This document shows positions 803-63,191 of a stretch of 64,000 bases of DNA, one piece after another. The position numbers and the translations under genes were made by a program. Below the pieces are notes generated by a model. It saw only the letters and a program-made list of their open reading frames with translations. It was not told where the DNA came from and made no database searches. The stretch comes from Raja brachyura. Lineage: Eukaryota. Location of the stretch: NCBI GenBank assembly GCA_963514005.1, contig OY740807.1:29760001-29824000 (forward strand). Direction: 5' to 3'. Each line of letters starts with the position of its first letter. The first letter of the stretch is position 1.

Positions 803-876
803 CTGGAAGAACGACCACAAATGAGGAGCTGGAAGACATGCTGGAGAGTGGGAATCCTGCTATCTTCACATCAGGG
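803..876 (+). CDS. STX1A: Syntaxin-1A internal coding exon (linker; human exon 7 equivalent)
   Basis: AG at 801-802, GTAAGT at 877; 74 nt; encodes (T)[32 protein letters not shown] matches STX1A rather than STX1B (GKLAIFTDD). Upstream exons lie outside the window. Confidence 0.95.
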
Positions 877-6892: not shown

Positions 6893-7840
6893 GAGTAAGT
6901 AAGTAAGTTTATTGGCCAAGTATTCACATACAAGGAATTTGCCTTGGTGCTCCGCCCACAAGTAACAACATGGCATACAGTGACAGTTACGAATGACTCA
7001 GAAAACACTAAACATTAATAATGATAAAACATTAATGATAAAACACCATTGATCAAGCATGTGAACCAACAAAATACCAGATCAAAGGGAGGCTACAGAT
7101 TTTTGGATGTTTAGTAGAGCAACTACTCGTGGATAAAAACAGTTTTTATGTCTGGCTGTGGCAGCTTTGACAGTCCGGAGTCGCCTTCCAGAGGGAAGTG
7201 ATTCAAAGGGTTTGTGGCCAGGGTGAGAGGGGTCAGAGATGATCTTGCCTGCTTGCTTCCTGGCCCTTGCAGTGTACAGTTCATCAATGGAGGGAAGGTT
7301 GCAGCCAATAACCTTCTCTGCTGATCGGACGATTCGCTGCAGCCTCCAGGTGTCGTGCTTGGTGGCTGAACCAAACCAGACCATGATGGAGAAGGTGAGA
7401 ACAGACTCTACGATGGCCGTGTGGAATTGGACCATCATTGCCTGTGGCAGATTGTGCTTCCTCAACTGCCGTAGGAAGTACATCCTCGGTTAGGCCTTTT
7501 TGACTGTGGAGTCGATGGTAGCCCCCCAGTTAAGGTCCTTGGAGATGATGGTTCCCAGGAACTTAAAAGACTCCACAGATGTGACTGTGGTGTTGTTGAT
7601 GGTGAGGGGAGGGGGAGCTTTCCTAAAGTCTACAATCAATTCCACTGTCTTAAGAGCATTGAGCTCTAGGTTGTTGCTACGGCACCAGGATGCCAGCTGT
7701 GACACTTCCTGTCTGTAGGCAGATTCCTCCCCATCCTGGACCGGTCCAATCAGGGTTGTGACGTCCGTAAACATGAGAAGCTTGACAGAGGTGTCTGTGG
7801 TGGTGCAGTCGTTGGTGTAGAGAGAGGAGAGGAGAGAGTA
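6893..7840 (-). mobile_element. Rex1/Babar LINE, 5'-truncated, relatively young
   Basis: LYTNDCT..SVKLLMFTDVTTLIG...LELNALKTVELIVDFRK...FKFLG and MYFLRQLRK...HPGHKPFESLPSGRRLR; (ctta)n tail. Confidence 0.9.
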
Positions 7841-8819
7841 CGTAGCCTTGCAGTTGCCGTTTCCAATAAAGCCCGACTCCTTGATATTCAAGTGCTTTAT
7901 TATTGCCGAATCTCTCAGCTTCAACATCCTTGGGGGCACCATTATCTGAACCAGACACAAATTATTGCAATAACAGTTTTGGCTGCTCAAGGGTGTGAGT
8001 AAATGTCTGGTGGGCTGTGGAACAAGGAGCTACAGGTTGGCCAGTGAAATGTTAATGCCTATCCTTCCACAATGTTGCTAAGCCAACCAGACTGTCTGTA
8101 ATGAGTGGATTTGACAGGATTCACCTTTTGCCTTGTCGTTTGATGGAATGTGTTGCAGGGTATTTCTGGCAGAATCAGAAAACCTAGCAGTATAGATAAT
8201 GAGAATGGAGATTTCTCCAGCATTTCTGTCTACCTTCGATTTTTCCAGCATCTGCAGTTCTTTCTTAAACATGTGAATGGAGATGCAGTCTTTGTAAGGA
8301 TAAAAGATGTACAGTCCTAAAGATAAAGCAAGAGATAAACACATCATCAGAAGGGTCCCGGACCCACATGTCATCTGTCCATTCCCTCCATAGGTGCTGT
8401 CTGACTTGTCGAGTGCTTCCAGCACTTTGGTTTGTTTTTTTACCCCATCAAGACTGCTAGTTTATGGAGAATTTTCAGTCCTTTAACCCTATGAATGAAG
8501 ATACAAGGAACTGCAGAGCAAAATATAAAGTGTCTAACCCTGGAATGTAGACGTAGCTAAAACAATATAAAATGAAACTGATGCCAAATGATTTAAAAAA
8601 TACCATGCCCTGTACCTGGGTGATGCCACATGTGGAAGTCCTGATTGAATGGCAAAAATCTGTTTATGAGTTGCCCTGATTTTGTCACAGTCTTCTTCTA
8701 AACCGTTCAGACTCCAGATTGAAAGTAACTTCGAGGATTTGTAGTATTTGGTCACACCCACATATGCTCTGTGATGCCCGGCTGGTCAGCTGATTCTGGA
8801 TGGTTCTCTCTTCTCTTAG

Positions 8820-8957
8820 ATCATAATGGATTCCAACATCACGAAGCAGGCTCTAAATGAGATTGAAACGCGACATCATGAGATCATCAAACTGGAGAAC
8901 TGTATTCGCGAGCTGCACGATATGTTCATGGACATGGCAATGCTGGTGGAAAGCCAG
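8820..8957 (+). CDS. STX1A: Syntaxin-1A exon, N-terminal half of the Qa-SNARE (H3) helix up to the 0-layer Q
   Basis: ttctcttAG / GTAAGA; 138 nt; [46 protein letters not shown]. Confidence 0.97.
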
Positions 8958-11170: not shown

Positions 11171-11922
11171 AGTAACAGATAACAGCAGCATAAAGCTTCA
11201 TTGGTGTTGGTGGTCAGGGCAAAATTGGTATTTTAAATATGTCGGCTGCATTCTAGAAAGGTTTTGGGACACTGGGAGACCGATGGAAAGGTGGAATGTC
11301 AGGAATCAATTCTATTATTCCCAAAGTATTCAGGATGGCACCTCATGGAGGCTGAACAAAACAGCTCTTTGCTCCCTATCCATGAACTTAGCACCTGAGG
11401 AAATTAGGGGGGGTTGGGGGGGGGGAAGAGAGACAAGAAATATTAACAGAGACCTCCGCTTCTCCAGTGAAATTCCCAGAGGAAATTCATTCCAGTTTAA
11501 AATCCCTGAACAGCAAAGATGACAATCTGAAAATGCTCCATTTGGTAAACAAAAAGATTATCTGGAGAATCAATACCAACCCATACCTTGGTTGATTTCA
11601 TCTGGTTTCTATGTGGGAGTTATTGGATGTTCTGATGAGTAAGTCCTTGGGAGAATAGGTGCCTCATTATGTTATAGTGGGATAAGGCTTTAATGCAGTG
11701 TTGGTATTCAAATAAACCATTAGTGGTGCCCACTTCAATAGAGGAATGGCTCTTTGCACCAGAAAAGCATGCAGGGTGGTAGTGTGGGGCCTCTTTGAGG
11801 CTTCGCTTCACTTTGCCCCCCACCCGTCAAGGACAATGCTGCCAGATATAATGCTTGTGATATAATTCCTTGGGATACCAGGGGCTTTTCGGGAAGAGTG
11901 AATCGTTCTCCTTCTGTTTCAG

Positions 11923-12033
11923 GGTGATGTGGTCAACAGCATTGAGAGGAACGTTGTTAATGCAACGGATTACATAGGCGACGCAAAGGACAACACAAAA
12001 AAAGCTGTTAATTTTAAGAGTACAAGCCGGCGG
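11923..12033 (+). CDS. STX1A: Alternative (putatively mutually exclusive) STX1A exon A: second copy of the C-terminal SNARE half, syntaxin-2-like
   Basis: ttctccttctgtttcAG / GTAAGT; 111 nt, phase 0-0, open: GDVVNSIERNVVNATDYIGDAKDNTKKAVNFKSTSRR; 16/37 identical to the canonical exon with all heptad-layer positions kept. Confidence 0.85.
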
Positions 12034-12109
12034 GTAAGTGACTGGTGAGAATGGCTGCTGAAGCACCTCTGTTACTTTCATGCGTCTCTGCTCTTTCCTC
12101 GATGCCCAG

Positions 12110-12220
12110 GGGGAGATGATAGACAGGATCGAATACAACGTCGAGCACTCAGTTGACTACGTAGAGAGGGCAGTGTCTGACACAAAAAAGGCGGTTAAGT
12201 ACCAGAGTAAAGCGCGACGG
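12110..12220 (+). CDS. STX1A: Canonical STX1A exon B, C-terminal half of SNARE helix
   Basis: cccAG / GTGAGT; 111 nt; [37 protein letters not shown]. Confidence 0.98.
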
Positions 12221-12244
12221 GTGAGTAGTGCACGTCGACAAGCC

Positions 12245-12250
12245 TGCATG
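12245..12250 (+). promoter_or_regulatory. RBFOX-type UGCAUG element just downstream of exon B
   Basis: TGCATG 25 nt after the exon B donor; a downstream position is the enhancing one in the RBFOX RNA map. Confidence 0.5.
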
Positions 12251-13173
12251 CGGTGTGGATGATCTCACTGTACGTCCCCAATTCCATCACAAGAGAATGT
12301 ACAAAAAAAATGTTAAGCAACCCTGAATTCATCTCATTGTGCACGTGTGTGTCTACAATTGTCACTCCATCAGTTGGTCGACTTCCCTCCCATCGAGGGG
12401 GCCCCATGCTGTAATAAAATTTATGAGGGTTATATATTCTGCGCACACGACTGGCTTTATGAGTGTCAGTGATAACAATTATAAGGGCCGTACTCTTCAC
12501 ATATTATAATTGGCTCTGGGACTGTGAGTCTTTCACAGAAATGTAACTGCTATCTTCACCTCAGGAAATTTCGACAGTTCAGAAGTGCACACATTGCATT
12601 ATGTTGCTGCACAGTTTTTCACGTATTTAAAAGGTGTAACTCAAACATTTATAAATCAGAAACAAGATATTCTAGAGGCACGTTAAAAATAACGTCCAGG
12701 AGCATGCGATCCCGTGCTGCATATACCTCTCTATAACCTAGGTGTAAACTTAGACCATAATGTACACTATAAATCTTGCAATCACTTTCCCCATCTCATT
12801 GCTGTTGTCTGCCAGGGTGAAACTATGGTTCAGCAATGATTATTTGCCCCACATTGTAAAAAGCAGAATGTCTTTTTGATGAAAGTAGAAGTAAGTGAAT
12901 AAAGTGATCTGACATCTCAAATAGATACATGAAAATTGGGCGATGATGTAAGCTTACCTTTTGTGAATATGTTCATCTATTCACAACATTGCACAGTAAC
13001 ACACTCCGAGGCATAGTTCGTGATGAGTGGTGTGTGATGCAGAGAACACAGGAATTAGCCGATTCTGTGATGTATGTTAAAGAGTCAGGCAACATTTTTG
13101 GTGTGGGACCCTGGGGGAGATGCGTGCACCTCTTAGTATTGACATTTACTACATTCAGTAGGTCTTTCATGCC

Positions 13174-19019: not shown

Positions 19020-19025
19020 TGCATG
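19020..19025 (+). promoter_or_regulatory. RBFOX-type UGCAUG element upstream of alternative TM exon A
   Basis: TGCATG about 40 nt before the 19063 acceptor and beside the CCTCAC branch candidate (19031-19036); an upstream position is the silencing one. Confidence 0.5.
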
Positions 19026-19062
19026 CCGAGCCTCACCAAATTGTTTTCTTCCCTTCCCACAG

Positions 19063-19140
19063 AAAATGATCTGTATAGGAATATGCATTGCAGTAGTACT
19101 GTTGATTATCATCATTGCTTTGGCTGTGTCCCTCAGTTAA
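19063..19140 (+). CDS. STX1A: Alternative terminal transmembrane exon A of STX1A
   Basis: ttgttttcttcccttcccacAG acceptor, phase 0; KMICIGICIAVVLLIIIIALAVSLS* is a tail-anchor like the syntaxin-2/3/4 C-termini. Confidence 0.85.
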   Translation, partial: KMICIGICIAVVLLIIIIALAVSLS

Positions 19141-19933
19141 TGCTCGAAAGCGCATGACCCACCGAATCATCCTGACTGAGACTAAAGCTGGGCTGTTGTT
19201 CCATGTATGTTTGTGTGAAAAGGAAAGACGACAACTCATCATTCCTGGACACCTCCATTTCATTTTGCCAACACCTAGGATTTTCCTGGAGGGGCTACTT
19301 ACAGGCACCAAGAGCATGATTCAGGTCTGACTTCTCCTCTTCAGTGCGGACCTTGCTTGCTTTGGCATCTCCATAAGCTGAAGAGCAACATCAGGATTCA
19401 AGCTACACTCTTTTATTTATCATTTTGGTTTAACTTAAATGTTTATAATCTTAAAAAGCATTATTGGTTTGCATCTTGCCTTAACAGAGTATGATCCATG
19501 ATTTTACAAACTTATTAGTTCACGATGAATTCAGGTGATGTTCTGCAGCGATTTTTCTATTTTTATAAATAATTTTAAAAGCAATTACTCTCCATTCCGT
19601 TCCTCTCTCTTTCCCATCTTGCTACTTTACCTTTTTTCTATCCAGTCTTTCAGTCTTTCTTTCCACTCTTCTCCCTCTCAACTCCCTCTTTTCTCTTTGT
19701 CAATGTCTCTCTCAAACTAGTCGTCATTCTCTCTGCAAATGGCCAAGCAAATTTTACTAAATGAATGTTGGAATAGAACTCGCCTATTTAGTTCCCAGAG
19801 CTTGTTGTGCCCATTCAGTGACTTAATATATCCACCTCCTGTAACGTAAAATGTAAATGTAACGTAAGATTTCTCAGCCCATCCCGGCTGCTCAAAGTAG
19901 ATAACGAGCATTCGGACGGACGCTGAGAATTTT

Positions 19934-20163
19934 GGCGGCACAGTGGTGCACCTGGTAGACCTGCTGCCTCACAGCGCCAGAGACTTGGGTTCAATCCCAT
20001 CCTTGGGTTCTGTCAGTGTGGAGTTTACACGTTCTCCCTATAACCGTATGGGCTTGGATGAGAAAGAAGGATAACACAAAACTAGTGTGAATGGGTGATC
20101 AATGGTCAGCATGGACTCAGCATGCCAAAGGGCCTGTTTCCATCCTGTGTCCCTAAACTAAAC
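19934..20163 (+). mobile_element. HE1-like tRNA SINE
   Basis: ggcggcacagtggtgca...ggttcaatcc head; gggcctgtttcc...taaactaaac tail. Confidence 0.75.
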
Positions 20164-20366
20164 AAATCACGCAGAAGGTTAACGTAATGAGCAGAAGGAG
20201 CTCATTGCTTCACACCCCACATACCTGACCACCCCACTAGCCACACTTGCCCAATGTAGGTCTTACATTGGCCTTATCAGCCACCTCAGAACCAGAAAGA
20301 AAACAACTCATCCGAAATCCTGTCTAAAACAAAGTTCCCTTATTCCCATTGTTATTCCCATTGTTA

Positions 20367-20734
20367 TCTCTATATAACTAAAAGTCTTTGTCTTGTTTGT
20401 GCCCACGATGTGTCTCTGTATGTGTCAATCTGGTTAATTCCTATCATCTTCTAAACGCTAGGCCACAGCCTTCCCATTTTTACAAATCCTACTCATATTT
20501 TTCCCATGGTGGCGATAAATATCTTCCCGTCGCATTTCCATTTATATTTCTGGTTATCAATCGTTTAAATTTTAAAAACAGCCCGATTTCTTCAACTCAC
20601 CCATTTTGGGAAAAAAAATCCGAGTGGCGTCACAATGCACTCTCAAGGCAGGTCGGGCCACTCTGGGAGGGAGGGACACTCCCGCGCTCCAAACCCCCCC
20701 ACTCCCCCTCCCAACGGTTCTGCAATTGGTCTAG
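20367..20734 (+). mobile_element. Non-autonomous Helitron
   Basis: 5' TCTCTATATAACTAAAA, 3' ccaa...ttgg hairpin then CTAG; inserted at A|T with no TSD. Confidence 0.7.
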
Positions 20735-22529
20735 TTCCCAATAAAAATCTATCAACCTCATAATCTGAATTTAACAGTTCCAGACTGACTAATTTATGAG
20801 TACAAGTGTTCATTCCTCACTTCAATGTTTAGACTGCCATTTCATCTTAAACTCTTAAATCAGTGAAAATAGTTTATCTTTATCTGGTTTATGTTCCCTT
20901 TATTATCTTGAAATCTTGTCAGATAACCCGTTAACCTTGTAAATTGCATGAAATCCGGCCTTCGCATAATTTTTCTTTGTTATGTAATCCTTAAGATTCA
21001 GTTGAATTTCAGAATTAAGATATTATTGCGATAAATCTGCTTTACCCTGTCTAAGGCCAAAATATCCATCCCAACTTGTAGCACACAGACTGCACCCAGT
21101 GCTCCAGTCATGCTCCAATCACGACTTGTAGCAGAATTTCTCAATTTCTTTTAATTTTATTTCTCAATATAAAATCCAGTATTTTATATAAAATCTCAGT
21201 ATAAAATCAAGTATTATATTTGCCCTATTATTTCCAGTATCTGTCTCTGATACTTTATCCAGCCCTCTTTGGATCTCCATTGTTTCTGGTTTAACACCAT
21301 TTGGAAGGTATTCTTTCACATCAGTCCTGTTTTGTGCATTTACCTAATCCATTAGCTCCTTATAAATTAATGCTCTTGTCTATAATGCTTTCGGTTTTGC
21401 CATGTCAGGCAAATTAAATATGTGTTTTCTATCGTGTCATCCAAGTACAACTGATCTTTGCAACCCCAACGCTAATCTTAGTTTTGCTGCCAATTTGAAC
21501 ACCCACCCTTAACTCTATTGCCCGTTTGCTGCCACAGTCAAATCTTAAATCGCTAATTCTTCTTCTATTCCACGAGCTGCCAATTTAGCTAATGGTCCCT
21601 CTGTAAAATACCTCTGGATGTCCATAGAAATAAAGGTTTTGGGCATTCCCTGTTGGCCATTTTAGGTATCTCTTCAGAATATAACTTGACCTCAGGTCTG
21701 TTGCAAACACTATGCTTAGGCCCGAACTGCTGACTTTTACTCCTAAGTTTTGGAGGTTGTAAGATTCCCGGGCAATTGTGAAGGTCTCCAACTTGCTCAG
21801 CGAGCTCTGCCAGCAGTTTCCCAACTGTTCCTTATGGAATCTGGTGGTGATCCATGAACTTGCAGAAGTCCCCAGTAGTTGTGTTGGGAAACCTCTTCAC
21901 TGAACCTGCACCAGGCCCCTTTCACCTGAGTAGAGAGGAACGACCATGAGAGAGAGAAGAGCAAGGTAATTCATATTCGATTGGATAAATAAGTTTGCTC
22001 TAATATTTTTAAATTATTTTAAATAGGTTTTTAATTCTTTATTATTAATTTATTTTTACGATATGTTGTTTTATTCATTTTTAATTGTTTTTGGATGTTC
22101 CTATAATGCCAGTGATATTCAGAATTCTTGACAGCTGGTAAAGCTTGAGATGTAGCTTTACTGTTTGTCAGATTTTTCTTTCAGTTGTTTTGTGTATTGG
22201 GCTTGTTCTAGTCCACCAGATGCCACCATTGCATAACACGACCATGTCACCGTGTAGCATCTCTCCCTTTTAGAATAGGATGGGACTGTACAAAATATTG
22301 ACACTGGAGGATCAGCAAAAGATAAATGAATGGTTAGCACATATGTTATTGCTGAAGAAGGGCAGCCTTCCACTACCAGGAAGTTACAGCCTTCTGTTGC
22401 CAAACATGATCCATTGCAAATATCTACAGAACGGAGGTATACACCAATCCATGGGTCCTCATTTAAAAAAATGCTTTTATTAGATGCAAATTATCTGACG
22501 CACATATCAAAGCAAATTGGCCCTAAAAA

Positions 22530-22860
22530 ATAGAACATAGAACAGTACAGCACTGGAACAGCCCCTTCGGACCACAATGTATATACTGAAGATGATGCCA
22601 AGGCCAACTCTTATCTCCCTGCATATCCATGTGCCTTGTCAAAAGCCTCTTAAATGCCACTATGCGGCTTCTGACACCACCACGACCATCAGCAGAGGTT
22701 TCAGGCACTCACCACCCTCTGTGTAAAAGCTTGCCCCACACATCTTTAAATTTTGCCCCTCTCACCTTAAAGCTATGCCCTCTAGCACTTGATATTTCCC
22801 TTGTGGGAAAAAAAGCTCTGACTGTCTGACCCATCTATGCCTTTCATAATTTAATATGCT
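22530..22860 (-). mobile_element. CR1 LINE 3' fragment
   Basis: ctctcaccttaaagctatgccctct and agaacatagaacagtacagcac tail motifs. Confidence 0.7.
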
Positions 22861-25282
22861 TTGTCAGGTACTAACCTCCCAACTTGATCAACTCCCCAGG
22901 AAACTGTACAAACATCACAGTGAATGAATCCACAGGCATTCCTTTTCAAAGTTTCATGTAGCATGAGTATCATAAGTTACAATGGGAAATTCTTGCCAAA
23001 TTCCTGTGAAAATCCCATTAAACCCATAAAAAATAAAAAATAAATTAAAGAGCAGGAAAATAAATCACAAATCCATGTGAATTTTGGAAATAATCAAACA
23101 TGCAGATACATGTAAAGAAACACATATAAAAACATTTTCATGTACAGATGCGGGAACGAGTGTGGATATTGCCATATATGAATTTGCAGTCATGAACAGT
23201 TCTATAGGAAAAAATATAGATCTAATTTTATGACACTGACAAATGTCAACACAATAGGCCCTGCATAAAAAGAAAACATTCTAACTTTTCCTTAATTTTG
23301 GTAGTAATCTTACATTTGTATTTTCTGGACAGATAATAAAGAAAGATACCTCCTTGGATCAAAAAAATGCCTATCAGACTTCCTAGAATCTTATAAAGTA
23401 GCAAAAGTATTACTTTTTCTCTAGTCTCACCATCACTAAAGCCTCGTACTCCACCAGAAATCCACTGAAATGTTATGCACTATGTATTAAGTTCTTACCA
23501 AAATTGTACTGACCAAATTTGGGATCATATTCTAAATGCAGTTTAACCAATGGCTTGAACAGATGTAGTAATATCTGGTTGTTGAACATGTTTTGTTCCA
23601 CACTTTTTTTAACTTGGCCCTTCCAGTTTAAAAAAAATCATTAATTGCAGTTTATTGTTCCATTCTATCAGCTTGTTTCTCACCATACTAAAGGAAAATG
23701 ATAAATTGTCAACATTTCTTTTATCACATATTATATATGGGCATATGTAACACTGACAACAATTCTCGTAAATGAAATAATGACAAAAGCAAAATAATAA
23801 AAATACAAATAATTCGTTGATCTCAAAGAAATTATCAACTGTGATACAAACTACTGAAGTGCTGTTATTTAACCCCCAAAAAAAGTGAAGCTGCCTAAAT
23901 AATAATAGACTCCACGGAAAAACATAAATACACTATGCAATAAAAGTAACACGATTTCTCCCCAAAAGCAAAGGAGCCTTATTGCCGTGGGAGAAATGTA
24001 TTGTGTTACAGCATGGGCCCTCTCCCGTGTCCCCACTACTCCTAATGAATGTGTGACTGGAACAGTATTATCCAGCTGTAAAACGACAGCACTATGTAAT
24101 ACATGTGGATAGTGCCATCGTTTTACAGGTGTTTTGTACCTTCCTAGATTTTACTCAGTTCTTCTTGTATCAGCATTACATTCCTCACTTTCTCTTCGTC
24201 CATTTCTGAAGATGTGGCTTGCTGTTTTGCATGATTGTAGATTTTAATGGCTGCTCTGCTGTTAAAACTTTTACAACCCTTTCACAAGGTGTGTGTAAGG
24301 TGAAGAGTGAGAGACTGTAAGGGAAGCAGTTGAGCTGCTATAACAAACTGACAGAAGTTGGAGAAGCTGATGATTCCATTGGCCACAAGGAATAGAAGAT
24401 AGTTTAGGTCTATATTATAGTCTAGATCTTAACAGACATCTCAACAGGGAATCTAAAATGTGTCCCTATGCAGTTCAATGCCTGATGATGGTAAGTGAAT
24501 TGACAATAAATAACATTCTTACATGCGGACATGCACTTTACACCTCTTTGTGCACACACTTGCAATCACACCCCTCTCTTAAAATTGTATTATCAACTCA
24601 GAATTGAACCAAATTAGATTTTGAATACTCGTCTTTCTCCCAAAATCTGCTCCTTTTGCAAAGCTTTTCAATTACTGTAAATACAAATTTGACAGCAAAA
24701 AGTAGATTAGGGTAAGATGCCAGTCAGAAACTTATTAACTCAATTCAATAATGTGTAAACATTTTACATTGGGATTAAAGGTCAAAAGAAGACATCATAC
24801 TTTCTACCTCCCCAGCTGTTTCCAGCTACAAAAAATGTCATGAGCGAGTGTTTATTGTCACCAAATTGTTAAGAAGAGAGATTTAAAATATGAAGTGGGA
24901 GCATTGTTGTTGTATGGTTGCATCTAATGTGAGCAGTTGTCTAATGTGAGGATGGCTTCTTAATATGATGGAGTGTGGTGATGGAATATGTGGTGTCCTA
25001 TTTATACCAAGAGATGTGTGGTGTGCGAGAGGTTTGAAATGTGAGGGACTTATGTTTCAAGGTAGGTTCTGAAATGTTAATGGTTTGTTAAAATGAAGAG
25101 CCTGCAACAAGAAGATATCAATAAGAACATTTACTGATGTAAAGGGAAGGTTATAATCTGTTTTGGAATTGCTTCATCTTCCATTCTGTAAAGACTCTGA
25201 ATCATTTAAATGTAAATAAAGTTACAGAACTAACACTTTCTCCTCTTCTTCCTGTCATGCTGCTTGGATTTGGGGGCTACAG

Positions 25283-25363
25283 AAGAAGATAATGATTATT
25301 ATATGCTGTGTGGTGCTGGGGGTCGTCATTGCCTCCACAGTTGGGGGAGTGTTTGGATTTTGA
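25283..25363 (+). CDS. STX1A: Canonical terminal transmembrane exon B of STX1A
   Basis: ctacAG acceptor; KKIMIIICCVVLGVVIASTVGGVFGF*, matching the syntaxin-1 TM with its CC doublet. Confidence 0.97.
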   Translation, partial: KKIMIIICCVVLGVVIASTVGGVFGF

Positions 25364-26273
25364 GAAACACAAAATAGGAAAGAATCTACCAATGTGATGT
25401 GGGCTTTTCAGCCACTTTGTGGGATGAAGTGACTTTCACTCGGTATCACTGAGAAAAGTTCCTCTGCATGACTATCTAGCATTAATTCCTTTACTGGTCC
25501 TGCTCTTTCTGGCTGTTAAGGTATGGTAACATTTTTTTTCCTCTTTTTTCTTTTTCAATGATGCTCTGTTTGCCATAAACACAAGAAAATTTGGCCCTGG
25601 GAAAAACAAAACTCTTCACATTTAAAGGGATTGATCTTAACCCATTTGATTGCCAAAGCCAAAGAAAGCCCAGTAAACACCAACAGACACAACGGCTGGA
25701 GTCGACATTTTGTAAGATACTGATCACAAAATGGCAATATCTTTTTTTAAAAAACTCAATTAGTCCCTAAGAGCTTTCAAATCTTGTCAAGGTTGGAAGA
25801 ATGCAGTGATCGACATCTCATCAGCACAATGGTATCCACTGGACTAGGCGGCCGGTCATTATCCCAACTGCAAGTGTTCTGTGGAAATTCTATTTCTTCA
25901 CAATAACACTACCATTGATGGCGAAATGATATGGTCCAAGAATGTTCTGCTCTAAATATAAGACTCCGTGTTTGCTACTGTGGGTGAGGAGCTGCCAGGC
26001 AGTCTTTGAAGTTTCTCTTTTGATCTCAGCCTTACTCCTTTGCTAATAACAGTTTTTTATTCGCTGTCATTTCTTCATGTGAAGAAGACTTGCTGATGAA
26101 GATTCTCAAGTGGTGCTATCGCTCCCCGCAATGTTAGAGAAAAGGCTGACAAGATCTGAAGAGTACCTTTAAAGGATTCAGCTTTTTTTTTCTTTTTTCT
26201 TTAAAGTGAAATGAGGTTGGAACTTTTCAAAATGTTATCATTTTTTAAATTTTATTTTGGATTACTAAAACAA

Positions 26274-32100: not shown

Positions 32101-33169
32101 TCCAACCCCATTTTCTCAGTTAGTTAAAAAAATTAACAAGAAGTCTGCAAGATTCTCTTAAATTGAGGTTTAGCTGTCCCAGGAAATAGCTTAATGCTGC
32201 TTGGAGGTGTATGATGAGACTGATGGAGAATTGGGAGGGAAATTTAAGTTGTTACGAGGTGAACAGGGTACAAAAACATGTCATTGTTGGAATGGGCTGG
32301 ACTTAATACATTTGAATCTTTTCATCGCTTTCCATGCATTATTATCTTCATAAATATTTCAATCCTGATGCTTCCCTATACATGATTAATGTAGGTAACT
32401 TATCATTGTTAAAGAACAGGCCCAGAATAACCATCATTGATGTTAGCACCACAACAGACTAGGAGACAATCCTTCACCATTTTAGAGGCATATTTTGGAG
32501 TTATTTTTATCCCAAGTCAAGTGTTATTCGTCACTTGCACATAAAGTGCAGTGAAATGAATTTGCCAGCAGCGGTACAATTTAAAAAAAACACACAGTAC
32601 ACAATAACATTTTAACACAAACATCCACCACAGCATTCATCACTGTGGTGGAAGGCACAAAATTTGGTCAGTCCTTCTCCATTTTCCCCCGTGGTCGGGA
32701 CCACAACTCTCCGCAGTCGCCTCTGCGGGCGTCCAGATGTACATACAATATCCAGAAAGTAAATGCCAATTAATGCTCTAACCTCCTTACACGTCTCGTT
32801 TATCCATCTTGTCATTGGACTACCTTCCTTATTGCAGTATCTCTCCTTCCCGCCCTGACATTTTACACTCCCAAGGCAACAAAAACCAAGTATTTGCTCT
32901 TATTCCGGTCTTGTTTAACTTCAAAACGTGTATCCGTTGTCAGTTTAAACACATTTTTGCAATCTCATTTGTTCTGGTTTTTTAAAAAATATTTTGTCCA
33001 TTCTCCTCACATTTCACCCTAACTCTACAGATATAAACACTTTAACATCATCATACACTCCCCTCTTGGAATCACCCCAATCAATTCACAAGAGTTAAAG
33101 CTAGTTGTAATTATCCAGATCAGTTGTCATTCAAAAATCATTGACAGAAGGGGATGATACAGAAGCAAA

Positions 33170-34095
33170 TTTGACTGATGGAATTGATGGTTTGCGGATG
33201 AAGTTTGCAGATGATTTGAATATGGGTAGAGGGGCAGGTGGTGACGAGGAAGCCGGTTGGCTTCAGAAGGACTCTGACAAGTTGGGAGAGTGGGCAAAGA
33301 AGTGGCAGATGGAATGCAGTGTGCAGTCAGGCACTTTAGTTGTAGGAATACAAATCCCTTTATACAAATAAACTATTTTCTAAATGGGGAGAGGATTCAG
33401 AAATTGGAGGTGTAAAGGGACGTGGGAGTGCTGGTGCAGAATTCCCAAAAGTGTAATTTGCTGGTTGAATCGATGCTGCTGGTAGCATGCATTTCGAAAG
33501 GGCTCGAATATAAAAGCATGGATGGTCCTTTATAAGCCACTGGTCAGACCGTATATGGAGCATTGTGAGCAGTTTTAGGCCCCATATCTGAGGAAGGATG
33601 TGCTGGCTTTGGAGAAGGTTCAGAGGACGCTTATGATAATGATCCCAGGAATGAGTGGGTTGACATATGATGTGTTTGACAGCTCTCTGGACATGTCCTT
33701 GTTGGAGTTTAGAAGGATGAGAGGGGATCTCATTGAAACTTGCCGAATAGTGAAAGTCCTGGATGTGGAGACGATGTTTTCACTAGTAGGAGCATCTAGA
33801 ACCACAGGACACTGCCTCAGAATAATAGGACGTACCTTTACAAAGGAGAGGATTAAGAATTTCTTTAGTCAGAGGGTGATGAATCTGTGGAATTCATTGC
33901 CACAGACATCTGTGGAGGCCACGTCCTTGGGTACATTTAAAGCAGAGATTAACAGGTTCTTGATCAGTAACGGTGTCCAAGGTTATGGGGAGAAGGAAGG
34001 AGAATGGGGTCGAGAAGGAAAGATAGATCAGCCATGATTGAATGTCGGAGTAGACTCGGGCTAATATGGCTAAATCTGATCCTATGACTTCTGAA
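33170..34095 (+). mobile_element. CR1 LINE RT C-terminal fragment
   Basis: KFADDLNMG...LQKDSDKLGEWAKKWQME; LEKVQR...LEFRRMRGDLIETCRI...NFFSQRVMNLWNSLP. Confidence 0.88.
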
Positions 34096-56174: not shown

Positions 56175-56714
56175 TTACACTGTTCTGTAACGGTCAAACA
56201 AATATTTTCTCTATGCAAGGCCACCATTGTCTTTGACTCTGAGGCAGTTTCCCTCGAGCAGCATCTGCAGTCTCTTGTAGTGCCACCATTTTCTCATCAT
56301 TCATCCACAAAAGGGACTCACTCCAAATATTTGAAGAGGTCTGGCCTCTCGAAGCATTACCAGATCCATCCAGATCAATTGTTGAGCTTCAAAAGATACA
56401 TCCTCAATGTGCACAGAGCTGGTTAGTAGAGAATTCTCTGTGCTAACAAGCCAAACAGCAACCAAAACAAACCCAAAACCTAGCCACATCTCTCATTGCT
56501 CTCTGTGGAATCCTGTCACTCCCCAATTGTCTCCTGCATTTCTTTACTATACATCATTTTGAAGTTCCAATTAATGGGTGTAGTTTATTTCCCATTTTTA
56601 ACTACAATCTGGGTTATTATTTTATATAATTTCCAATTTTATAAAATTAGATTTCCCATGAATGTATACAATTTCAAATCCTTCACATATAAATATGCCA
56701 AACAATGTTCATCC

Positions 56715-57332
56715 TTCATCCAGGAAGGAGAGAAACGGAGGACGAACCCCTTGCCTCTCAACTCGTGCCCACTGAACGCAGCCAGGGACTGGGAAATGCG
56801 TGTTGACCTAGGCCAGAGGCTTTCGTTCCCAGTTGAAATCGCAGTTACCAACCTGCGACCAGACCTCGTTCTCTGGTCCAACTCCTGTCGCCGTATTTTC
56901 ATCATTGAGCTGACGGTCCCATGGGAGGAGGCTGTGGACAAGGCTTATGAAAGGAAAAAGCTTCGATATTCAAACCTTGCAGCAGAGGCAGAGGAGAGAG
57001 GTTGGAAGGTAAGGGTGTGTCCAGTGGAGGTAGGGTGCAGGGGCCTTGTAGCCAGTTCGACCGCAAGGCTCCTGAGGGAAGTAGGAGTCAAAGGGCAGGC
57101 ACAAATAAGGGCAATAAAATAACTTGCCAATGCCGCCGAATGGAGCAGTCACTTGCTGTGGCTGAAGAGGAAAGATGCTGTCTGGGCTGCCACGTGACCA
57201 TCTAGAGGCTAACAATAAGACACACACCCAGGTCTGATCAACCTGTGGTGGGCCTGCCTCGACTGAGGGTGTCTTGTGATAAAAGGCCAAAACACCCAGT
57301 GACGTTGAGATACACAACTGAAGATGTGTCTG
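56715..57332 (+). mobile_element. HERO-like (R2-group) non-LTR retrotransposon 3' end, REL endonuclease
   Basis: DWEMRVDL...LRPDLVLWS...IIELTVPWEE...YERKKLRY...PVEVGCRG; in-frame stop at 57120-57122. Confidence 0.85.
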
Positions 57333-61086: not shown

Positions 61087-61543
61087 TTATGGATTTTTTA
61101 TACAAATTGCATCTAATGCATTCTTCGCATCATCGATCTGCTGCTGCAACCTCTCGCGCATTGCATCTGTTGTTGCTTTCCTTAATCTGCCTTCCATTTC
61201 TTCAATTACTGCACGGTAACCCACCACATTGTGGAATACCCGAACAGCACGATCGCCACTGGAAACTAAGAACCTACTGTTGATGTCAAAAGCCAAGCCA
61301 GCAATGTCCTCACCGTGCACATTTAGAAATTCTTCCTCCTGCCTGCCTGTCTTGGTGTTGTGCATCGTGATGTTGAAGCCATTGGAAATAGCTACCACCC
61401 TGGCATCAGGAGAAAGAGCGATTCGGCAAGAATCAGAAACATCGCACTTCATAGTTAACAACAAGTATGGATCTTGCTGCTGTTTGTACTGAACATCGGT
61501 GTCCCACAGCTTCCAGGTGCCATCTTTTGAAATTGTTGCCATT
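61087..61543 (-). CDS. TBL2: Transducin beta-like 2 (WD40 protein), last coding exon
   Basis: Acceptor tttcctggatAG|A ATG; (R)MATISKDGTWKLWDTDVQYKQQQDPYLL...CRIALSPDARVVA...VHGEDIAGLAFDINSRFLVSSGDRAVRVFHN...RERLQQQ* matches the TBL2 C-terminus. The previous exon is not seen in the window. Confidence 0.95.
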
Positions 61544-62388
61544 CTATCCAGGAAACAAATAATGATATATTTTTGAAATGACCATCGTCTGTATTTTTGT
61601 TAAAACAATATTTTAGACCAGAATCCATAACATTAGCATAACATTCAGACCAATCACTAATTTCTTTTTTTAATCATTCTTGCCCATAAATTAATAATTT
61701 ACTCAATTAATCCAAATTACCAGCTAAAATTGTGACATTTTTTGCTCTTGGCACTGTAATAATCTTGCTCGAAAAACCAAATGCAATCAACAAGTGGAAG
61801 CAGCCAAATGAAATGACACACTTAATAGTCACACCTAATATTAGTTCACATTTATCTTTTGAAACCATATGACATTTTTGTATGCTAGGCGAATTCTCTT
61901 GTCTAAAGCACGATAAAACATATTTAAGAGTCGTTTCTCCTTTGGATTTTTCGTCAGACATCTTAATGTATGCCCTCTGGTTTTCAAATCTACTACCGAT
62001 GAGAACAGTTGCCTTTTGTTTACTCCAATGGATCCTTGAAGAATGTGAATGCTCTACGAAATTTTCTCTCAACCCATTCTTTTCCAAAGTGAACACCACC
62101 AGCTTCTCCAGATTACCCATTAAATAAAGCCCCTCTTCTCTGGAACCACTCGTGAATTGCTTCTGCACCCCAAAACCTTCACACTCGCTCCAAAGAGAAG
62201 TATTGAGAAATGGAAACAAAATTCTAGCTGTGGATTGCACGTTTTACAAAAATTCAATACAACGTCACTGCATATAGTGCCCTCCATAATGTCTGGGACA
62301 AAGACCCATCATTTATTTATTTGCATCTGTACTCCACAATTTGAGATTTGTAATATAAATAATTACATGTGGTTAAAGAGCACATTGT

Positions 62389-63191
62389 TCTCCTCTATTT
62401 GTGATAAATGTAAGAATCTTGAAGCAAATTTAATACATAGTTTGGTAACGTGTCCACGGTTGAATTATTATTGGATTGAAATTTTTAAAGTTATTTCGGA
62501 AGTTCTTAAGGTTGAACTCGACCCAGACCCAAAATTAATAATATTCGGAATCCCGGAGCCAAATTTGGTACTCACAGTTAATCAAAGAAATTTTTTTGAT
62601 TACTGTTTAATAATAGGGAAAAAAATGATACTTAAATTTTGGAAGGGAACATTATCCCCAACAATTAAAATGTGGAAAGCAGAGATGTTGGAGACGTTGA
62701 ATTTGGAAAGAATTAGATTTGTCCTTTTGGACAGGTATAATTCTTTTGAATCGATATGGTCTCCATATATACAGTATTTAGAGAAGTAGCTATTCTTGGA
62801 ATCACGGCTCGACGGACACCCTACGGATCCGATGCGAATAACTTACTTATATTTGATATTATTGTGCATTTATTAGAGATATTTCTGAATGAAATAGTAT
62901 TTCGTATAATGACTTTAGTTTTTGTTTATATATATGTAATATTTTTGTTTTTCAAATTTTCCCTTTTTTTTTCTTTTTCTTTACGGTTGAAGTATGTGGG
63001 AAGAATTTTTTATTCCTTTTTATTTACTCTTTTTTCTTTTCTCTTTTATATATCCTTTTCTTTATTTCCAAAAAATAGAAGATATTAAGTATTGATATGT
63101 TATTTGTAGTAATATTGAATTAAGGTGTTAGTTTATAAAGTAAGCTTTACATTGTAAACGGTTTACTTCAAATAAAAAAATATTACACAAA
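62389..63191 (+). mobile_element. 5'-truncated L1-clade LINE inserted in the Tc1 left end
   Basis: CDKCKNLEANLIHSLVTCP (CCHC)...KFWK..PTIKMW..LERI...IWSPY*; aataaa and A tail; 15-bp TSD taaagagcacattgt (62374-62388 and 63192-63206). Confidence 0.9.

What the first reader, a model, noticed from the sequence alone, without database searches (positions are those of the whole stretch)
19063..25363. Two alternative terminal transmembrane exons, probably coupled to the SNARE-exon choice
Seen: both 19063-19140 (KMICIGICIAVVLLIIIIALAVSLS*) and 25283-25363 (KKIMIIICCVVLGVVIASTVGGVFGF*) are phase-0 tail-anchor exons. An A+A isoform would change the juxtamembrane KARRKK to TSRRKM and lose the CC doublet. 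Knowledge: those elements mediate PIP2 clustering and palmitoylation in syntaxin-1A. Inference: up to four isoforms with different 3' UTRs, with A-A and B-B likely paired as in STX3A/3B.
Basis: partly seen in the sequence, partly recalled or inferred. Interest (0 to 1): 0.8.

Follow-up and report, generated by a model that had tools for sequence, protein, structure and literature searches.

The report
Fish syntaxin-1A with two membrane tails
This cartilaginous fish's gene for the nerve fusion protein syntaxin-1A has two alternative membrane-anchor ends and two alternative fusion-helix ends, spliced in a related fish as matched pairs and likely one mixed form, an old arrangement already known from syntaxin-3.

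Summary
Both exons are real. The gene is syntaxin-1A, with two 111-nt SNARE exons (A 11923-12033, B 12110-12220) and two last exons (TM-A 19063-19140, TM-B 25283-25363). Transcript contigs of a close relative (four runs, three samples, one study) show A to TM-A and B to TM-B directly. Contig break points in one run fit an extra B to TM-A form; A to TM-B was not seen. Coupling is thus real but lopsided: likely three isoforms, not four. TM-A is conserved in sharks, rays, coelacanth and ray-finned fishes, and automatic RefSeq models already hold it. Exon order equals human STX3. The A module looks like STX2, including residues shown to alter release when put into STX1A. TM-A loses the CC pair but keeps one conserved cysteine. 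Likely mechanism (inferred): a 76-nt intron enforces exclusion, and RBFOX-type motifs after B and before TM-A couple the choices. Tissue use is untested. The scan found this system before in other cartilaginous fishes. Verdict: real, old, known in kind; modest interest.

The parts
803..876 (+). Constitutive syntaxin-1A exon (linker, ...[18 protein letters not shown])
   Evidence: Translation and splice sites
8820..8957 (+). Constitutive exon: N-terminal half of the SNARE motif, ends at the zero-layer Gln; donor joins either SNARE exon
   Evidence: its 3' end appears as loose ends before 11920 and 12106 in all 4 runs
11923..12033 (+). SNARE exon A (111 nt, STX2-like C-terminal half of SNARE motif, ends TSRR)
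   Evidence: three differences in organism A are two silent and one D to E
12034..12109 (+). 76-nt intron between the SNARE exons; every usable branch adenine lies at most 47 nt from the A donor (likely steric exclusion); retained in some contigs
   Evidence: no joint that skips it, retained in X1, X2, X3
12110..12220 (+). SNARE exon B (111 nt, neuronal type, ends KARR)
12229..12250 (+). GCACG (+10) and TGCATG (+25) downstream of exon B: candidate RBFOX enhancer
   Evidence: function inferred, conservation untested
19020..19025 (+). TGCATG 43 nt upstream of TM-A: candidate RBFOX silencer
   Evidence: function inferred, conservation untested
19063..19140 (+). TM-A: proximal last exon, 25-residue tail anchor of STX2-like type
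19141..23960 (+). Likely 3' UTR of TM-A (about 4.8 kb), AATAAA at 23939
   Evidence: Contigs cover 19062 to 23949 in pieces and none covers 24198-24771 in X1, X2, X4; signal; end inferred
25283..25363 (+). TM-B: distal last exon, canonical syntaxin-1 tail with CC pair
25364..25826 (+). Start of the TM-B 3' UTR (end not determined; contigs run on)
   Evidence: table 8

Best explanation
The syntaxin-1A gene keeps two mutually exclusive SNARE exons and two alternative last exons, spliced in a close relative as A with TM-A and B with TM-B, likely also B with TM-A, so that one gene makes a nerve-type protein and a likely general-purpose, STX2-like protein. Shown: exon anatomy, use of both acceptors, the two matched junction paths, conservation. 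Inferred steps: (1) A and B exclude each other because all branch adenines of the 76-nt intron lie within 47 nt of the A donor (about 70%); (2) A and the proximal TM-A with its poly(A) site are the default, and a neuronal factor, most likely RBFOX, both promotes B (motif downstream) and blocks TM-A (motif upstream), which would give B-TM-B in neurons, A-TM-A elsewhere and B-TM-A as the intermediate (about 45%); (3) A-TM-A would be a less clamped, less palmitoylated plasma-membrane SNARE for non-synaptic exocytosis (about 55%); (4) the duplication is older than the split of STX1 from STX2/STX3, and tetrapod STX1A likely lost the A module (about 75%).
For: Junctions: upstream exon to A and to B in 4 of 4 runs; A to TM-A in X1 and X4; B to TM-B in X2, X3, X4; X4 holds each path as one unbroken contig (386 and 1266 letters). 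Simulation of contig breaks: of 4 transcript sets tried for run X1 only the one with B to TM-A gives all five observed lengths (139, 132, 57, 117, 54) and the 3-letter exon start of the TM-A contig. Database models: among 56 vertebrate STX1-type records of 145 fetched, 32 A+TM-A, 9 B+TM-A (one hybrid exon in each count), 1 A+TM-B, 14 double or read-through. Human STX3 has the same order, 9A, 9B (119-nt intron), 10A, 10B (PMC8373072 supplement); 9A/10A and 9B/10B are paired and tissue-specific (PMC8263458). Exon A keeps all 8 core layers hydrophobic or small (layer positions recalled) and carries 4 of the 6 STX2 substitutions tested in PMC10957171 (D231N, Y235R, E238V, V248K), plus N at K256 and T at K260, positions that matter for priming and palmitoylation (PMC9183232). 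Trees: B-type SNARE exons of STX1, STX3B and invertebrates group at 97/92 and B-type tails at 96/92, while the shared backbone joins STX2 with STX3 at 98/98. Steric limit near 50 nt: PMC7969005. RBFOX downstream of an included exon: PMC10676425.
Against: All junctions come from one study of a related species, from contigs, in runs whose RNA nature the tool only guesses (X4 flagged 'probably DNA'; spliced joints and empty introns argue for RNA). B to TM-A is inferred, not read. X2's TM-A contig has only 18 upstream letters, so its partner is unknown. Absence of A to TM-B in contigs is not proof, and one UniRef model has it (P0064). Tissues are unknown. The RBFOX motifs were noticed after the fact: 2 of 12 exon flanks hold TGCATG against about 0.4 expected, with no conservation test; the repressor rule for upstream sites is recalled. 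Branch points are not mapped. The AU test does not reject a duplication inside the STX1 line (p = 0.056); in that smaller tree the A/B split has 88/92, not starred; A exons evolve fast. Exon A is not closer to STX2 than exon B is by raw identity (21 vs 25 of 37).
Confidence: 0.75

Rival explanations
1. Strictly two isoforms (A-TM-A and B-TM-B) as in STX3A/3B; the B-TM-A trace is splicing noise without a role.
For: X4 shows only the two matched paths. Human STX3 junctions reported are 9A/10A and 9B/10B.
Against: X1 contig geometry needs B to TM-A; 8 non-hybrid database models from eel, bony-tongues and carps have it, though these are automatic.
Confidence: 0.25
2. The two choices are independent and all four isoforms are made; matched pairs dominate only because of the tissues sampled.
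For: Phases allow all four; one model has A with TM-B (P0064); contigs drop rare forms.
Against: A to TM-B in 0 of 4 runs; the X1 contig from A runs unbroken through the first 27 letters of TM-A, which the A to TM-B set does not predict.
Confidence: 0.1
3. The A exons arose by a separate duplication inside the jawed-vertebrate STX1A gene and only converge on STX2.
For: AU test p = 0.056 does not reject one clade of STX1 A and B exons; short, hydrophobic or fast-evolving sequences mislead trees.
Against: Same exon order and sizes as human STX3; shared STX2-type residues at surface positions; STX2 and STX3 events are dated to Bilateria in PMC8373072.
Confidence: 0.13
4. TM-A is a chance hydrophobic frame or a dead relic in this species.
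For: No RNA of the window's own species was listed, so its own acceptor use is unseen.
Against: Rank 1 of 684 candidates, intact acceptor, spliced in a relative about 95% identical, conserved to coelacanth and teleosts.
Confidence: 0.02

Closest known systems
Mammalian and fish STX3A / STX3B (exons 9A/9B, 10A/10B; PMC8263458, PMC11476516, PMC8373072)
   Same: Two 37-codon SNARE C-half exons in tandem with a short intron, then two last tail exons, order A, B, TM-A, TM-B; matched pairing; B module neuronal in type with CC pair.
   Different: Here it is the STX1A paralogue; a mixed B-TM-A form is likely; TM-A is not of the STX3 10A type (scores 32-44 against such tails, 59-71 against frog STX2 tails); tissue split untested here.
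STX2 (epimorphin) alternative tails
   Same: Exon A shares STX2 surface residues; TM-A resembles the STX2 tail ending in LATTL(S/T) with one cysteine.
   Different: STX2 has one SNARE exon and no B module (own-genome STX2 on contig C212 shows one SNARE exon and one tail in the 8.6 kb held).
C. elegans unc-64 A/B (PMC4946901)
   Same: Syntaxin-1 with alternative tail anchors, one neuronal and one non-neuronal, set by a neuronal RNA-binding protein.
   Different: Regulator there is UNC-75/CELF, only the last 14 residues differ, no SNARE exon switch described in the passages seen; homology of the exons not tested.
RefSeq models of fish syntaxin-1A isoforms (e.g. Narcine bancroftii XP_069766522.1, Latimeria isoform X1)
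   Same: The same A-TM-A protein, already predicted automatically.
   Different: Models only; no paper on them was found in the searches made.

Membership tests
Syntaxin-1A orthologue | Syntaxin (Habc) plus Qa-SNARE domain and tail anchor | tested here: met
   PF00804 and PF05739 on the Narcine orthologue P0001, PF05739 on both SNARE exons (A 25.2 bits, just under the 26.8 cut-off for this 37-aa piece)
Syntaxin-1A orthologue | Backbone groups with STX1, not STX2/STX3 | tested here: met
   tree on the Narcine orthologue: STX1 side 91/92, STX2+STX3 98/98, STX1B 100/100 apart; labels of unnamed rows assigned by motif, checked against human STX2/STX3, STX1B recalled
Syntaxin-1A orthologue | 1A rather than 1B | tested here: inconclusive
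   Nearest rows are named STX1A (96% to Latimeria) but the 1A rows form no supported branch; neighbouring WD40 gene looks like TBL2 by recall only; no STX1B exon found in G000
STX3A/3B-type double switch | Tandem homologous SNARE C-half exons of equal length and phase | tested here: met
   111 + 111 nt, phase 0, 16/37 residues and 66/111 nt identical
STX3A/3B-type double switch | Mutually exclusive use | tested here: met
   Upstream exon joins each; no A-B joint in 4 runs, only intron retention; contigs only
STX3A/3B-type double switch | Two alternative last exons in the order A then B, each used | tested here: met
STX3A/3B-type double switch | Strict pairing A-A and B-B | tested here: inconclusive
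   Matched paths read directly; B to TM-A inferred in 1 of 4 runs
STX3A/3B-type double switch | B form neuronal, A form in non-neural tissue | not testable with these tools
   Run tissues are not given and contigs give no levels
STX3A/3B-type double switch | TM-A descends from the same exon as STX3 10A | tested here: inconclusive
   Scores and a 26-column tree place it nearer frog STX2 tails; groups were picked by eye, support weak
Sterically enforced mutually exclusive exons | Branch point under about 50 nt from the upstream donor | tested here: inconclusive
   All intron adenines other than those at -8 and -2 lie at most 47 nt from the donor; branch point not mapped
RBFOX-regulated exons | Conserved (U)GCAUG in position, binding and splicing response | not testable with these tools
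   Motifs present; no related genomes held, no binding data

The most novel reading that the evidence does not exclude
The single syntaxin ancestral to STX1, STX2 and STX3 had two SNARE exons and three tail exons, and each duplicate kept a subset: STX2 exon A with tails alpha and beta, STX3 A and B with alpha and gamma, fish STX1A A and B with beta and gamma, STX1B and tetrapod STX1A only B with gamma. Fish STX1A would then be a natural, RBFOX-switched version of the engineered STX1A/STX2 chimeras, and land-vertebrate syntaxin-1A became nerve-only by losing exons.
Probability: 0.3. Interest if true: 0.6.

Novelty: new member of a known kind. Interest (0 to 1): 0.36.

Why it matters
It shows that the main synaptic SNARE of mammals is, in fishes, a two-purpose gene, and gives a case where jobs of splice forms were likely divided among duplicated genes. 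The A form is a natural counterpart of the STX1A/STX2 chimeras that lose release clamping in mouse neurons (PMC10957171), and B-TM-A would separate the SNARE effect from the tail effect, so the roles of both can be tested with natural proteins. Practically, zebrafish and other fish stx1a tools may hit several different proteins. The arrangement itself is known from STX3 and is in automatic annotation, which limits surprise.

Tried and rejected
No RNA holder on record was listed for 19040-19640; four guessed-RNA runs of organism A and one of organism B were laid instead. The 17-kb lay was swamped by repeats, so its joint table gave nothing on exons; only its contig table was used. X5 (organism B) covers pieces at 19207-19418, 22532-22942, 23146-23268 but gave no junction. 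Searches of G000 with three exon peptides found STX2, a divergent syntaxin on C1439 and intronless syntaxins, but no STX1B or STX3 exon; this may be assembly gaps or the limited first look. No intact third tail exon between 12221 and 25282 ranks in the top ten of the scan. Competing RNA hairpins as the exclusion mechanism: four short inverted repeats of 12-16 nt at chance level, not pursued. An alternative AAG acceptor at TM-B, unspliced TM-A with read-through of B, or A to TM-B do not explain the X1 break points (the AAG case by reasoning). No tetrapod STX1A with an A-type exon among named hits (120 listed of 1356; 28 of 38 candidates); 90% clusters could hide B-TM-A forms. Ten paper searches (listings only) showed no paper on alternative SNARE or tail exons of fish STX1A; subscription journals and bioRxiv supplements are not covered.
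Full report
Observation. Of 684 candidate acceptor-to-stop frames on both strands of the window they rank first and second in hydrophobicity. [quoted passage not shown] B is nearly the rat syntaxin-1A sequence; A shares 16 of 37 residues with it. The window is G000:C29:29760001-29824000. The closest named relative is the ray Narcine bancroftii, so the animal is a cartilaginous fish (inferred).

Are the exons used? No run on record as RNA holds the stretch, but four guessed-RNA contig sets of a relative (organism A, three samples, one study) do. On 11650-12650 their loose ends show the upstream exon joined to A and to B in 4 of 4 runs, A joined to TM-A in X1 and X4, and B joined to TM-B in X2, X3 and X4. 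In X4 each path is one unbroken contig from the shared exon into the 3' UTR (386 and 1266 letters). No contig joins A to TM-B or skips the 76-nt intron; X1, X2 and X3 hold contigs that retain it. In X1 the B contig stops 2 letters into the next exon and the TM-A contig starts with 3 exon letters. A simulation with 31-letter words reproduces all five X1 contigs only if B is also joined to TM-A; three other transcript sets fail, and the simple sets reproduce X2/X3 and X4. This third isoform is inferred, not read. Contigs cover 19062 to 23949 in pieces and stop beside an AATAAA at 23939, which suggests a 4.8-kb TM-A UTR. Limits: another species, one study, contigs, unknown tissues, RNA status guessed by the tool (X4 marked 'probably DNA', yet spliced and empty in introns). 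The three differences read in exon A are two silent and one D to E; the one listed in TM-A is silent, with 548 differences not shown.

Conservation. RefSeq already models the A plus TM-A protein in Narcine (XP_069766522.1, XP_069766519.1). A-type SNARE and tail exons occur in stx1a models of catshark, white shark (SNARE exon only), coelacanth, sturgeons and many teleosts. Of 145 fetched proteins, 56 passed a vertebrate STX1 backbone filter: 32 A+TM-A, 9 B+TM-A (one hybrid-exon model in each), 1 A+TM-B, 11 with both SNARE exons, 3 read-through. The queries were A-type, so B+TM-B is not counted, and these are automatic models. No named tetrapod STX1A with an A exon was among the 120 listed of 1356 hits or the 28, and the human catalogue of tandem exon duplications has no STX1A or STX1B row. 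Several arthropod and mollusc models also show tandem SNARE exons and two tail types.

What the A form would be. Numbered as rat STX1A, exon A keeps the eight core layers hydrophobic or small (layer positions recalled) and changes the surface: N231, R235, V238 and K248 are four of the six STX2 substitutions tested by Salazar Lazaro et al.; the C-terminal half of STX2 placed in STX1A shrank the primed pool and raised spontaneous release (PMC10957171, abstract and section 10). K256 and K260 become N and T; K260 controls palmitoylation of C271/C272, and this segment drives PIP2-linked clustering (PMC9183232, passages). TM-A lacks the CC pair but keeps a cysteine at 271 in 8 of 8 fish tails compared. 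So A-TM-A is likely an STX2-like protein for non-synaptic exocytosis; this is inference.

How the splicing likely works. Double inclusion would be in frame, so decay cannot remove it. All adenines of the 76-nt intron, bar those at -8 and -2, lie within 47 nt of the A donor, under the proposed steric limit of about 50 nt (PMC7969005, passages). TM-A has the better pyrimidine tract (17 of 22 against 11 of 22) and comes first, so it is the likely default. TGCATG stands 25 nt after B and 43 nt before TM-A; RBFOX binding downstream favours inclusion (PMC10676425, passages) and upstream favours skipping (recalled). One neuronal factor would thus couple both choices and, at middle levels, give B-TM-A but not A-TM-B. 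The motif appears 23 times in 64 kb; 2 of 12 exon flanks hold it against 0.4 expected, noticed after the fact and not tested for conservation. In C. elegans a CELF protein sets the tail choice of unc-64 (PMC4946901, passages), so another factor is possible.

Comparison with what is known. Human STX3 has exons 9A, 9B (119-nt intron), 10A, 10B in the same order and sizes (PMC8373072, supplement rows), paired and tissue-specific (PMC8263458 and PMC11476516, passages); the STX2 and STX3 events are dated to Bilateria. In my trees the backbone joins STX2 with STX3 (98/98) whereas B-type SNARE exons (97/92; 57 rows, 37 columns; three invertebrate second exons fall inside) and B-type tails (96/92) join across paralogues, which fits a duplication before the genes split. 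The AU test does not reject the alternative (p = 0.056; 25 of the 57 rows). TM-A scores 59-71 against six frog STX2 tails and 32-44 against eight STX3A-type tails, and human STX2 has both kinds; hence the idea of three ancestral tails, which rests on short hydrophobic sequences grouped by eye. Paralogue labels of unnamed rows come from motifs. PMC9741552 has no mention of syntaxin in its main text; bioRxiv 10.1101/162958 (passages) lists soluble syntaxin forms, to which the intron-retaining form may be akin. Ten searches (listed under Tried and rejected) showed no paper on the fish STX1A isoforms. Two earlier notes of this scan report the same system in other cartilaginous fishes; they were read after my own tests and are not independent support.

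Verdict. Real and conserved; works like STX3A/3B; a new member of that kind on the STX1A paralogue, already in automatic annotation. Added here: junction evidence for lopsided coupling, a testable splicing mechanism and the three-tail idea. Interest 0.36.

Noticed in passing
window 11923-12135: Contigs in 3 of 4 runs splice the upstream exon to A and then retain the 76-nt intron into B. In the window this stops 4 codons after exon A (soluble, tail-less form or decay target); organism A differs at 12046 and lacks that stop.
   Followed up: partly
window 61090-61599, minus strand: Last exon of a WD40-repeat gene facing syntaxin-1A tail to tail (Pfam WD40); looks like TBL2, a neighbour of human STX1A (recalled, not tested).
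   Followed up: partly
G000:C13:31017120 and 31023327 (L004, L003): Two tandem intronless syntaxin-like genes ending in a cysteine-rich tail without a membrane anchor (syntaxin-11/19-like by recall); the L004 copy has small deletions relative to L003.
   Followed up: no
G000:C1439:21149-21740 (L014): A divergent intron-containing syntaxin, possibly STX4 (recalled); no tail exon found in the 9.9 kb held downstream.
   Followed up: partly
P0009 (Anguilla) and P0123 (Paramormyrops): Database models whose SNARE exon begins as A and ends as B, suggesting an internal A-to-B splice or an annotation artefact in bony fishes.
   Followed up: no
P0040, P0041, P0043, P0050, P0057 (carps): In these cyprinid stx1a models the otherwise nearly invariant exon B is unusually diverged.
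   Followed up: no
   Followed up: partly
window 7085-8029 (minus), 33111-34034, 56484-57119, 62124-62786: Frames that look like decayed LINE reverse-transcriptase fragments (by eye).
   Followed up: no
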